44,938 nucleotides of DNA, from IMG/VR virus record IMGVR_UViG_637000107_000005, one strand, 5' to 3'. This stretch comes from a virus (lineage: Duplodnaviria > Heunggongvirae > Uroviricota > Caudoviricetes). This document shows, piece by piece, positions 6,001 to 9,000 of this stretch. How positions within the stretch are numbered: the stretch's first letter is position 1; every line of letters starts with the position of its first letter. The position numbers were made by a program.

Positions 6001-9000
6001 CTGCTTGGTAACTCGAAGTATTGCCCGGCGTTCTGTGGGGCGGGGTGGGTGGTTGGTGTATGTAATCTACAATAAAAAACTGTTTTTGTGTCAACAGTTT
6101 TTAATTGTTGTTTTGGGCAAAAAAATCCCTCGAAAGAGGGAGTATGAAAATTGTTCAACTCAGATAGAGAAGGGAAATTGTCGCCGAGAATGTGTCACGC
6201 TTACAATCTCAATGCTTGAAGCAGCTACTCTGTACAGGATTATGTAGTTAGGGTGGGTCACGATCTCTCTCAATCCAGAAACCCGTTCGCTTGGTGGATA
6301 TAAGTACGGATGCTCAGATAGAGGTAATACCGATGTTTCAATGCGTATTTTTAGTCTACGTGCTGCCGGTGGGTTCTCCTTGGCGATGTAAGTTATGATC
6401 TGGCGCAAATCATCGCGAGCAGACGGTAGCCATAAAATGGGTAACATTACTCGCTCTTGTTAGTTACAGCAATTTGAGCAATAAGATTTTCCATTTCAGC
6501 CATTACCTCGTCATGTGGAATTGCGGGGCGAGTGTCTGCAAGGCTTGACGTTACTTTAGTGCGCAACCATTCGTTGTAACTGTTTTCTTGTTCGGTAGTT
6601 TCGAATTCTGAAACTATCGGAGAAAGGGCTGTACCCATGGCATAACTCCTCTTCTTGTACTGTGGTCACGCCCGGCGGCTTTTTTGTGCCGCCAGCCACC
6701 TAGCAATGGTTTCTTCCATTGATTTTTTCTTGTCTTTGATTTCTTGAAGCATTTTTTCTTGGTCTTCCTCAGGAAACGCACTAAAAGCTTGGAGCAGTTC
6801 GCGTTGGCGAGGACCAATTTTCATCGTGTCAGGGGTGAAAATTTGCTCACACTCTTCAGGAGGCAATAAAAACCAATGCAATGGATGCCCTGAAACCTCA
6901 ACCAGTTTATCCAAACTTGAGGCTTTAGGTGTAGCCTTACCGCTGACCCATTGTTGAACAGTTTGTTGTGTCACACCAATTCTACGGGCAAGCTCAGCCT
7001 GGCTCCATCCAGTTTCCTGAAGAAGCTTGCTGATTCTGTACATAGATACTTCTAGGGCGCTCATCATTATTCAATTTTACAGGTAAATACTGTTAAAAGC
7101 ATCACAATAAAAAACTGTTGATTGCATACAGTTTTTTATTGTAGGCTTTGCTTATAGTTTTTAGAGGAGGGCAAAATGCTAGATAGCACTCGCGAAAAAA
7201 TTAGGCAGAAATACACTCAGGCTGAAATAGGTCGTTATATGGGGGTCGCTCAACAGACTGTTTGGCAATGGTTTAGCTTTGGCGTTCCCCCAAAGCAGGT
7301 AATTCCGTTATGCCAACTAATGAAGTGGGAAGTTACCCCGCATGAAATCCGCCCAGATATTTATCCTAACCCAACCGACGGTTTACCTGTTGGATGTAAG
7401 GTTAACACATCAAATGCGCCGGAGTTGATTCATGAAAATCAAGCATGAACACATCCGCATGGCGATGAATGCCTGGGCGCATCCGGACGGCGAAAAAGTA
7501 CCGGCTGCGAAAATTACCAAAGCGTATTTCGAGCTGGGAATGACGTTCCCGGAACTGTATGACGACAGCCATCCGGAAGCCATGGCTCGCAATACTCAGA
7601 AAATTTTCCGCTGGGTGGAGAAAGACACTCCTGATGCGGTTAAAAAAATTCAGGCGTTGTTACCAGCGATCGAAAAAGCGATGCCGCCTCCGCTGGTGGC
7701 CCGAATGCGCAGCCACAGTTCCGCTTATTTTCGGGAGTTGGTAGAGACGAAGGAACGGCTGGTGAAAGATATTGATGATTTCGTTGCATCAGCGATCGTT
7801 CTGTTCGATCAGATGAATCGTGGTGGCCCGGCAGGAAACACTCTGGCTGTGCATTAATTGGGTAATAAATATGAGTAATGACAAAAAATTGACACTGAGC
7901 GTTTACGAAAACAGTCCGCACATCTGGCGTGGCGGTTTATCTGATGTGGAGCTGGCAGAGTGGTTGATACATAAAGCTAATGCGCTGCTCTGGCGTTTGT
8001 CAGCCAGAGAACAGCGCAAGGAAACCAGAATAAAGCTGGCTGATGCAGAAGCGTGTGCCGGGCTTATTGAGGATTATACAAATCTTGGTATTTCTTCAGC
8101 AGAGAGTGATCCCATTCAGCCTCTGAGCAGGGAGTCAATCCAGCACGCTGGTTGTATGGCACATCTTGTAACTGCTCGTCAACATGAGGTGGGTATTGGA
8201 TCACTTCCGGCGGGATATTCGCTGATTCCAGAGCTGGTTGAAGCAAGAAAATCAGTTCAGAAAAAGAGAGATGACGCACTTCAATTATTGAGAGAGCACT
8301 ATGGCGCGATACCAGAATGCGAACAGCGTCGATACCCTGAAGGTTATGAATGGATGCAGTCTCTTTTTGAAGTTCGCTAATCAATATGTCGAGACGAAGG
8401 TATGTTTCGGCGCGCAGCCAGGCTCTGTAATCCGGGAGCATTTCGGGGCTGTTACACCAGCGGTTTGTTGCTGCAACATTTAATACATGAGCCTGATAAA
8501 GGCTTTTCAAAAAATACATGTCGAACCTCCTCTGGTTCTGTCGATTGGGAACCACAGATTATATCCGGAGGAAGGTTCGGCACCAGATGAGGTAGCCATG
8601 CGTGATTACGCAAAAGTTTCTCCGCGATTCTGGCTGGGAGAAACGGGGAGAGAACTTAGAAAGGCGGGTGCAGAAGCGCAAGTTGTTGCTTTTTACCTGA
8701 TGACATCCCCTCACGCAAATATGCTGGGTTTGTATTACCTGCCAGTTTTATACCTTGCTCATGAAACCGGGCTTGGTCTGGAAGGGGCTTCAAAGGGGCT
8801 TAAAAGGGCTGTTGAAGCTGGTTTTTGTAGCTATGACCATGATGCAGAGATGGTCTGGGTCCATGAAATGGCAGCCTGGCAGGTTGGGGAAACGTTGAAG
8901 CCTGGCGATAACCGTTGTGCAGGTGTCAGGAATGAGTATGCATCATTACCTGAAAACGCTTTTCTGTCAGTGTTTTACGACAGATATAAAACGGATTTCC

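What the first reader, a model, noticed from the sequence alone, without database searches (positions are those of the whole stretch)
6160..6638. ParE-family toxin/antitoxin pair occupying the rexAB position between repressor and leftward operators
In lambda the slot between cI and OL/pL holds the rexAB exclusion system. Here it holds a compact, translationally coupled antitoxin-toxin pair (63 aa then 95 aa, 1-nt overlap) that would be expressed from the lysogen alongside the repressor. That placement suggests a lysogen-expressed exclusion, abortive-infection or prophage-stabilisation role rather than plasmid-style addiction.
Basis: partly seen in the sequence, partly recalled or inferred. Interest (0 to 1): 0.6.

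Follow-up and report, generated by a model that had tools for sequence, protein, structure and literature searches.

The report
Known paaR1-paaA1-parE1 prophage toxin-antitoxin

Summary
Window 6447-6638(-) encodes a 63-aa PaaA-type antitoxin (Pfam PaaA2, 5.6e-19). Window 6160-6447(-) encodes a 95-aa ParE toxin (Pfam ParE_toxin, 2.9e-17; 67% identical to the crystallised ParE2). The two genes overlap by one base (TAATG).

They lie downstream of a 133-aa HTH repressor (6666-7067) and are followed by an intrinsic terminator. A 15-mer operator occurs only four times in the window: twice left of the terminator (OL-like) and twice between the repressor and a divergent ydaS-ydaT (cro/cII-like) pair.

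Window 6030-7857 is base-for-base identical to E. coli O157:H7 EDL933 (the prophage beside yccA, which is CP-933M) and to Sakai Sp4. The locus is therefore paaR1-paaA1-parE1, the three-component TA system of Hallez et al. 2010. Its paralogue paaR2-paaA2-parE2 has been dissected experimentally: PaaR2 acts like CI, YdaS like Cro and YdaT like CII, there is a PL/OL analogue, and the locus causes post-segregational killing. It has been explicitly described as replacing rexA/rexB.

Exclusion remains untested. Verdict: already known, low interest.

The parts
6160..6447 (-). parE1: 95-aa ParE-family toxin
   Evidence: Pfam ParE_toxin E 2.9e-17 over the full-length model. 67% identical to ParE2 of the PDB 5cw7 sequence. 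Identical to EDL933 WP_001303876.1 and Sakai ECs_1067.
6447..6638 (-). paaA1: 63-aa PaaA-family antitoxin with no DNA-binding domain; its stop overlaps the parE1 start by 1 nt
   Evidence: Pfam PaaA2 E 5.6e-19 at residues 16-48, and no RHH/HTH hit. NCBIfam NF050103 scores 92 bits. 70% identical to PaaA2. Corresponds to Sakai ECs_1068.
6666..7067 (-). paaR1: 133-aa HTH repressor (CI analogue), the third component and first gene of the operon; no S24 peptidase domain
   Evidence: Pfam HTH_3 E 2.3e-12 and Phage_CI_repr E 7.4e-5. NCBIfam DicA subfamily hit is below its cut-off. The C-terminal 98 aa are 42% identical to PaaR2, and the C-terminal ~45 aa are conserved in all alleles. Sakai ECs_1069 is annotated 'phage repressor protein'.
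6126..6141 (-). Intrinsic terminator-like hairpin (TCCCTCTTTCGAGGGA followed by TTTTTTT), 19 nt after the parE1 stop; probable end of the paaR1-paaA1-parE1 transcript
   Evidence: Terminator scan and minus-strand sequence. Function is inferred.
6064..6113 (.). OL-like operator pair: two inverted 15-mers (6069-6083 and 6094-6108) with a perfect TTGACA on the minus strand (6094-6089) between them; PL analogue facing left
   Evidence: Repeat finder. The 15-mer ACAATAAAAAACTGT occurs only 4 times in 44.9 kb, all at these two sites. Analogous to the PL933P/OL described for CP-933P. PaaR1 binding is not tested.
7068..7175 (.). Divergent regulatory region (OR-like): two inverted 15-mers (7104-7118 and 7128-7142) around TTGATT (7118-7123, + strand). 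A TAAAAT hexamer ends 6 nt before the paaR1 ATG on the minus strand, and there is no SD, consistent with a leaderless paaR1 mRNA
   Evidence: Leaderless translation is shown only for paaR2 and is inferred here.
7176..7448 (+). ydaS-family HTH protein, Cro analogue
   Evidence: Pfam YdaS_toxin E 8e-10. Function is assigned by analogy with CP-933P YdaS. No detectable similarity to the CP-933P YdaS sequence, i.e. heteroimmune.
7432..7857 (+). ydaT, CII analogue; its operator OM (TTGATTCATGAAAATCAA, 7425-7442) spans the ydaS end and ydaT start
   Evidence: Pfam YdaT_toxin E 1.2e-9. 90% identical to the RAE2-linked YdaT. Exact match to the published YdaT site TTGATTN6AATCAA.

Best explanation
This is paaA1-parE1, the toxin-antitoxin part of the three-component type II system paaR1-paaA1-parE1. 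It lies in the immunity region of the lambdoid prophage CP-933M (EDL933) / Sp4 (Sakai) of E. coli O157:H7.

Shown from sequence: PaaR1 (an HTH repressor with no autocleavage domain) is the first gene. PaaA1 (a short antitoxin with no DNA-binding domain) and ParE1 (a ParE-fold toxin) follow, translationally coupled, and a terminator ends the unit just before an OL/PL-like site.

Inferred from the experimentally studied paralogue paaR2-paaA2-parE2:
- The three genes are one operon, transcribed from a PRM-like promoter (leaderless paaR) and, after YdaT activation, from a PRE-like promoter.
- PaaR represses the divergent ydaS-ydaT (cro/cII-like) operon and the leftward promoter. YdaS counteracts it, giving a bistable switch.
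- PaaA binds and neutralises its cognate ParE only, and is turned over by ClpXP/ClpAP.
- When the locus is lost or silenced, the antitoxin decays and free ParE poisons DNA metabolism (nucleoid-associated, SOS-inducing, probably topoisomerase-directed). Cells that lose the module are killed.

The most likely biological consequence is addiction: the module stabilises the prophage, or specifically its immunity region, against deletion or replacement.
For: Identity:
- There are 0 mismatches over 1828 nt (window 6030-7857) to EDL933 and to Sakai Sp4.
- The WP accessions are the same as in EDL933, and the Sp4 annotation agrees.

Family assignment.

Architecture.

Mechanism in the paralogue:
- Operon and PaaR2 repression, ClpAP/ClpXP-labile PaaA2, SOS induction and nucleoid localisation.
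- Operators and DNase footprints.
- A PL/OL analogue repressed about 100-fold.
- PRE activated by YdaT.
- Leaderless paaR2.
- Mini-F stabilisation as efficient as ccdAB.

Conservation:
- A paaA-parE allele is present in 833 of 5426 complete E. coli genomes, 437 of them at >=99% identity, almost all chromosomal.
- Four diverged alleles all keep the repressor-antitoxin-toxin order opposite ydaS-ydaT.
Against: - Nearly all mechanistic experiments were done on system 2, not system 1. The two share only 67-70% identity in the TA proteins, and their repressor DNA-binding domains and operators are unrelated.
- The cellular target of ParE1/ParE2 is not established.
- Single-cell work detected no ParE2 activation in either transcriptional state. 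A natural trigger is therefore unknown, and the stabilisation role is a proposal rather than a demonstration in the chromosomal context.
- My allele comparison shows that repressor HTH/operator cassettes have been exchanged next to a retained TA pair. The TA has thus not prevented immunity swapping as such, only (possibly) swaps that lose it.
- My simple promoter scan did not call PRM, PR or PL.
Confidence: 0.85

Rival explanations
1. Lysogen-expressed phage exclusion or abortive infection. Superinfecting phage shuts off host transcription or boosts proteolysis, PaaA1 decays, ParE1 is freed, and it arrests or kills the infected cell. This would be functionally parallel to lambda rexAB or BTP1 bstA in the same slot.
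For: The position is the same as rexAB. The cI-to-N interval is a recognised hotspot of mosaic cargo that includes two Abi systems, and cI promoters are highly transcribed in lysogens. The pair is absent from otherwise collinear phages (Tritos, 640R1), so it behaves as optional cargo. Type II TA systems are known in general to provide phage defence (references listed; otherwise my own knowledge).
Against: There are no experimental data for any paaA-parE pair. Neither protein matches any of the 5027 PADLOC models. The published phenotypes are addiction and bistable expression without toxin activation. The two roles are not mutually exclusive.
Confidence: 0.12
2. The toxin is an effector of the lysis-lysogeny switch itself. 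When PaaR1 repression collapses, paaA1-parE1 transcription drops and freed ParE1 halts host DNA replication or gyrase. This would either assist prophage development or kill cells that derepress a defective prophage.
For: The TA pair is wired into the PaaR/YdaS/YdaT bistable circuit. The prophage also carries other host-directed toxic cargo downstream of the leftward promoter (dicB/DicF).
Against: In the paralogue the TA genes are transcribed appreciably in both states, and the fraction of SOS-positive cells is the same in the ydaST-on and RAE2-on subpopulations (0.876% vs 0.953%).
Confidence: 0.06
3. ParE1 is an mRNA-cleaving RelE-type interferase rather than a ParE-type DNA/topoisomerase poison.
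For: There is an NCBIfam TIGR02385 RelE/StbE subfamily hit just above its cut-off (28.4 vs 27.9 bits). Pfam PF05016 covers the whole RelE/ParE superfamily.
Against: The only PDB sequences matched at E<=1e-3 are ParE proteins (5cw7, 5czf, 6x0a), with no RelE, YoeB or HigB chain. The 67%-identical ParE2 localises to the nucleoid and induces the SOS response.
Confidence: 0.04

Closest known systems
paaR1-paaA1-parE1 of E. coli O157:H7 EDL933 prophage CP-933M (Hallez et al. 2010, Mol Microbiol 76:719)
   Same: Everything. The DNA of window 6030-7857 is identical to EDL933 and Sakai Sp4, and the protein accessions are the same.
   Different: Nothing in the locus. The window as a whole is not EDL933 or Sakai: positions 1-15399 are 99.5% identical, the late region resembles other EHEC prophages, and the window contains 126 N bases.
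paaR2-paaA2-parE2 of CP-933P / Sp12 (Jurenas et al. 2021, PMC8630535; structures 3ZBE, 5CW7, 5CZE, 5CZF); also carried by the isolated temperate phage Evi (LR597642)
   Same: Same gene order, same slot in the immunity region opposite ydaS-ydaT, same PaaA and ParE folds, a conserved PaaR C-terminal domain, and a YdaT protein and YdaT operator that are 90% and 100% conserved respectively.
   Different: ParE is 67% identical and PaaA 70%. The PaaR N-terminal HTH, the operators (ACAATAAAAAACTGT here, a GTTTAGTAA-type consensus there) and YdaS are unrelated, so the two are heteroimmune. Antitoxins do not cross-neutralise.
Canonical parDE (RK2; Caulobacter and Vibrio parDE)
   Same: ParE-fold toxin, an upstream labile antitoxin, and a post-segregational killing phenotype in the paralogue.
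   Different: The antitoxin is not a ribbon-helix-helix ParD and has no DNA-binding domain. Transcription control is delegated to a separate prophage repressor. Gyrase has not been demonstrated as the target.
Lambda rexAB and BTP1 bstA (cargo downstream of cI)
   Same: Same genomic slot between the repressor gene and the leftward promoter, expressed with the repressor in the lysogen.
   Different: No sequence relationship. rexAB and bstA are demonstrated abortive-infection systems, whereas paaA-parE is demonstrated only as an addiction module.

Membership tests
paaR-paaA-parE three-component type II TA | Toxin of the ParE family (about 92-95 aa) | tested here: met
   PF05016 at 63.5 bits over the full model. 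E 3e-36 and 67% identity to ParE2.
paaR-paaA-parE three-component type II TA | Antitoxin of the PaaA family, short and without a DNA-binding domain, immediately upstream of the toxin | tested here: met
   PF21217 PaaA2 at 68.3 bits, with no other Pfam domain at E<=0.01. 70% identical to PaaA2. 1-nt overlap with parE1.
paaR-paaA-parE three-component type II TA | Third gene, paaR, encoding an HTH regulator, upstream on the same strand in an operon-like arrangement | tested here: met
   A 133-aa HTH protein lies 27 nt upstream. Its C-terminal domain is homologous to PaaR2. The only minus-strand terminator lies after parE1. Co-transcription itself was not measured.
paaR-paaA-parE three-component type II TA | Location in a lambdoid immunity region, divergent from ydaS-ydaT, with repressor operators on both sides | tested here: met
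   The same layout is seen in four further alleles.
paaR-paaA-parE three-component type II TA | Toxicity of ParE and specific neutralisation by the cognate PaaA; a ClpXP/ClpAP-labile antitoxin | not testable with these tools
   Reported for systems 1 and 2 by Hallez 2010, as summarised. The original paper is not held in the library.
Canonical ParD-ParE | RHH ParD antitoxin that binds its own promoter | tested here: not met
   No ParD, RHH or Phd hit; only the PaaA2 domain is found. PaaA2 is described as devoid of a DNA-binding domain.
Canonical ParD-ParE | Toxin inhibits DNA gyrase | not testable with these tools
   The target of ParE2 is stated to be still unidentified.
RelE mRNA interferases | Closest relatives are ribosome-dependent RNases, with conserved RelE catalytic residues | tested here: inconclusive
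   There is a marginal TIGR02385 hit (28.4 vs 27.9 bits), but the only PDB relatives found are ParE proteins. Catalytic residues were not examined.
Lambda RexAB-type exclusion | RexA/RexB homologues | tested here: not met
   No RexA or RexB Pfam hit and no PADLOC hit.
Lambda RexAB-type exclusion | Located between cI and PL/OL and expressed in the lysogen | tested here: met
   Position shown. Expression is inferred from the paralogue.
Lambda RexAB-type exclusion | Blocks growth of superinfecting phages | not testable with these tools
   No published test was found.

The most novel reading that the evidence does not exclude
paaA1-parE1, and the roughly 15% of complete E. coli genomes that carry an allele in the same slot, may act as a repressor-coupled abortive-infection or anti-recombination device. 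Because each allele neutralises only its own toxin, and because the conserved unit is [PaaR C-terminal domain + PaaA + ParE] with exchangeable HTH/operator cassettes, the pair would penalise superinfecting or recombining heteroimmune lambdoid phages that displace it. That would make it a functional successor of rexAB rather than a mere addiction module.
Probability: 0.15. Interest if true: 0.5.

Novelty: already known. Interest (0 to 1): 0.12.

Why it matters
It matters little as a discovery. The locus is a named and partly characterised system, and its placement in the rexAB slot has been published for the paralogue. It has some value as an annotation check. RefSeq labels the antitoxin 'RelB family' or 'hypothetical' and the repressor simply 'helix-turn-helix'. 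Pfam calls the Cro/CII analogues 'YdaS/YdaT toxins', a label the literature rejects. The open biological question is what, if anything, triggers ParE in a lysogen, and whether the pair defends against phages or locks the immunity region in place. That question remains worth an experiment, and system 1 offers a natural heteroimmune comparison to system 2.

Tried and rejected
- PADLOC scan of toxin, antitoxin and repressor: no hit for the TA pair, only generic HTH hits for the repressor. There is therefore no database support for a defence role.
- tblastn of ParE1 against 50,697 phage records: only phage Evi (which carries system 2) and one weak metagenomic hit. The pair is rare among isolated phages but common in E. 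coli chromosomes.
- The simple sigma-70 scan did not call the expected PRM, PR or PL promoters. I located candidate hexamers by eye and mark them as inference.
- The RelE reading was considered and set aside.
- A ydaS-ydaT 'toxin' pair is suggested by the Pfam names, but the published evidence rejects it.
- Hallez 2010 could not be read. Its content is cited through PMC8630535 and PMC4803016.
- Literature searches for work on paaR/paaA/parE since 2022, or linking this slot to TA-based defence, found nothing beyond the YdaT structure paper and reviews.
- I asked whether TA allele and repressor specificity co-vary, which would support an 'immunity lock'. They do not: L005 pairs a system-1-like TA with an unrelated repressor HTH, and L007 pairs a system-2-like TA with a PaaR1-like repressor.

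Full report
**1. The observation**

The ORF list shows two minus-strand ORFs, 6447..6638 (63 aa) and 6160..6447 (95 aa). AAGAGGAG lies 7 nt upstream of the first ATG. There are no ambiguous bases in this region.

The ORFs are real genes:
- The 95-aa protein matches Pfam ParE_toxin end to end (63.5 bits, E 2.9e-17).
- The 63-aa protein matches Pfam PaaA2 (68.3 bits, E 5.6e-19).
- NCBIfam gives an antitoxin equivalog at 92 bits, and a marginal RelE/StbE subfamily hit for the toxin.
- Against PDB sequences the toxin matches ParE2 of E. coli O157 (5cw7_B, E 3e-36) and the antitoxin matches PaaA2 (3zbe_A, E 1.4e-20). No RelE-type chain is matched.

**2. The surroundings**

A 133-aa HTH protein is encoded 27 nt upstream on the same strand (6666..7067). 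It hits HTH_3 and Phage_CI_repr, shows DicA-like similarity below the cut-off, and has no peptidase domain.

Two genes are transcribed divergently from it. One is a YdaS-family HTH protein (7176..7448) and the other is YdaT (7432..7857).

A hairpin followed by a T-run lies 19 nt after the toxin stop on the minus strand (6141-6126).

The 15-mer ACAATAAAAAACTGT occurs exactly four times in the 44.9-kb window. The copies form two inverted pairs, at 6069/6094 and at 7104/7128. That places one pair just left of the terminator and one pair in the repressor/ydaS intergenic region. Each pair encloses a -35-like hexamer that faces outward: TTGACA on the minus strand at 6094-6089, and TTGATT on the plus strand at 7118-7123.

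On the minus strand a TAAAAT hexamer ends 6 nt before the repressor ATG, with no Shine-Dalgarno sequence. This fits a leaderless mRNA, which is an inference.

The published YdaT operator TTGATTN6AATCAA is present exactly at 7425-7442, spanning the ydaS/ydaT junction.

**3. Identity**

A 2-kb query is 100% identical to many O157:H7 chromosomes. In Sakai the region lies in the annotated 'prophage Sp4, lambda-like phage' as ECs_1067 (plasmid stabilization system protein), ECs_1068 and ECs_1069 (phage repressor protein). In EDL933 it lies in the prophage next to yccA, with the same WP accessions. Window 6030-7857 has 0 mismatches over 1828 nt to both genomes.

[quoted passage not shown] System 2 is on CP-933P and a homologue is on CP-933M. 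PaaA1 does not neutralise ParE2, nor PaaA2 ParE1 (citing Hallez 2010). Sp4 corresponds to CP-933M by my own knowledge, and the ordering is consistent with this.

O157:H7 records show two places for the TA query, as expected for systems 1 and 2. The finding is therefore paaA1-parE1, and the adjacent repressor is paaR1.

**4. How it works**

*Shown here by sequence.* The locus has the three-gene layout, translational coupling, a terminator, flanking operator pairs, a divergent cro/cII-like pair and a YdaT site.

*Taken from experiments on the paralogue (PMC8630535, PMC9986795):*
- paaR2-paaA2-parE2 is an operon repressed by PaaR2.
- PaaA2 lacks a DNA-binding domain, binds ParE2 cooperatively and is degraded by ClpAP/ClpXP.
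- ParE2 colocalises with the nucleoid and induces the SOS response; its target is still unknown.
- paaR2 is leaderless, like cI.
- PaaR2 and YdaS footprint over PRM/PR, and both repress a PL analogue with OL operators about 100-fold.
- YdaT activates a PRE-like promoter.
- The circuit is bistable. No ParE2 activation was detected in either state, yet the locus stabilises an unstable mini-F as well as ccdAB does.
- The authors propose that the pair is an addiction module that limits rearrangement of the immunity region.

I adopt this mechanism for system 1. The caveat is that only toxicity and cognate neutralisation are reported for system 1 itself.

**5. Comparative checks made here**

*Distribution.* 833 of 5426 complete E. 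coli genomes carry a paaA-parE allele, and 437 of them are at >=99% identity to this one. Almost all copies are chromosomal. Four diverged alleles (68-86% DNA identity) all keep the order repressor-antitoxin-toxin, opposite ydaS-ydaT and upstream of DUF1391/dicB.

*Isolated phages.* The temperate phage Evi carries system 2 in the same slot. Collinear phages Tritos and 640R1 have nothing between cI and the leftward region. Their homology to the window stops at 6047-6052, just left of the OL-like site, and resumes at about 7421-7427. The whole block from OL to ydaS is therefore an exchangeable immunity cassette, with the TA pair as optional cargo.

*Breakpoints between TA-bearing alleles.* Homology runs from the left flank through parE and paaA into the 3' end of paaR (to window 6731-6833). 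It then breaks across the HTH domain, the operators and ydaS. The C-terminal ~45 residues of PaaR are conserved in all alleles.

*No co-variation.* TA allele and repressor HTH type do not co-vary. This is compatible with selection for recombinants that retain the TA pair, but it does not demonstrate such selection.

**6. Rival readings**

*Exclusion or abortive infection.* This is plausible by position, since the cI-N interval is a known hotspot that holds rexAB and bstA. It has no direct support: there is no PADLOC match and I found no published test.

*A role as an effector of the switch.* This is disfavoured by the equal SOS fractions in both states of the paralogue.

*A RelE-type RNase activity.* This is disfavoured by the PDB relatives and by the SOS phenotype.

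**7. Verdict**

However, the system is already named, structurally characterised through its paralogue, and already described as occupying the rexAB position. Novelty: already known. Interest: low.

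Noticed in passing
window 4435-4486 (-) and about 4062-4250 (-): A DicF antisense sRNA (Rfam 76.9 bits) and dicB (cell-division inhibitor) lie downstream of the leftward promoter, as in the Qin prophage. This is a second host-toxic cargo in the same early-left operon.
   Followed up: no
window 13224-13398 (+): A sok antisense RNA (Rfam 105.6 bits) lies next to hokD. This is a type I toxin-antitoxin system in the same prophage, so the element carries at least two TA systems.
   Followed up: no
window 17022-17188 (+): Rfam hit to the sRNA STnc100 (94 bits) in the late-regulatory region.
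   Followed up: no
whole window; N bases at 3107, 3134, 16952, 18091 and onward, dense across 29.7-35.2 kb: The window contains 126 N bases. Two fall inside the 823-aa exonuclease gene. Positions 1-15399 are 99.5% identical to Sakai Sp4, but the late region is closer (96-98%) to other EHEC lambdoid prophages. This looks like a draft or consensus assembly across paralogous prophages.
   Followed up: partly
window 7176-7857 (+): The Pfam family names 'YdaS_toxin' and 'YdaT_toxin' label the Cro and CII analogues as toxins. Published work shows they are transcription regulators, not a TA pair. This is an annotation trap right next to a genuine TA system.
   Followed up: yes
window 6666-6833 (3' part of paaR1), compared with L003, L005, L006 and L007: Recombination breakpoints between immunity types fall inside paaR. 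The C-terminal ~45 aa of the repressor stay linked to paaA-parE, while the HTH domain, operators and ydaS are swapped. TA allele and repressor specificity do not co-vary.
   Followed up: partly
window 8064-8555 (-): A 163-aa ORF lies antisense between ydaT and the replication (O-like) gene. RefSeq annotates it as an 'ECs1072 family phage-associated protein'. Its function is unknown.
   Followed up: no
whole window: ARAGORN finds no tRNA genes, although Sakai Sp4 and EDL933 CP-933M carry ileZ-argN-argO downstream of the Q antiterminator. This is another sign that the window's late region differs from those references.
   Followed up: no
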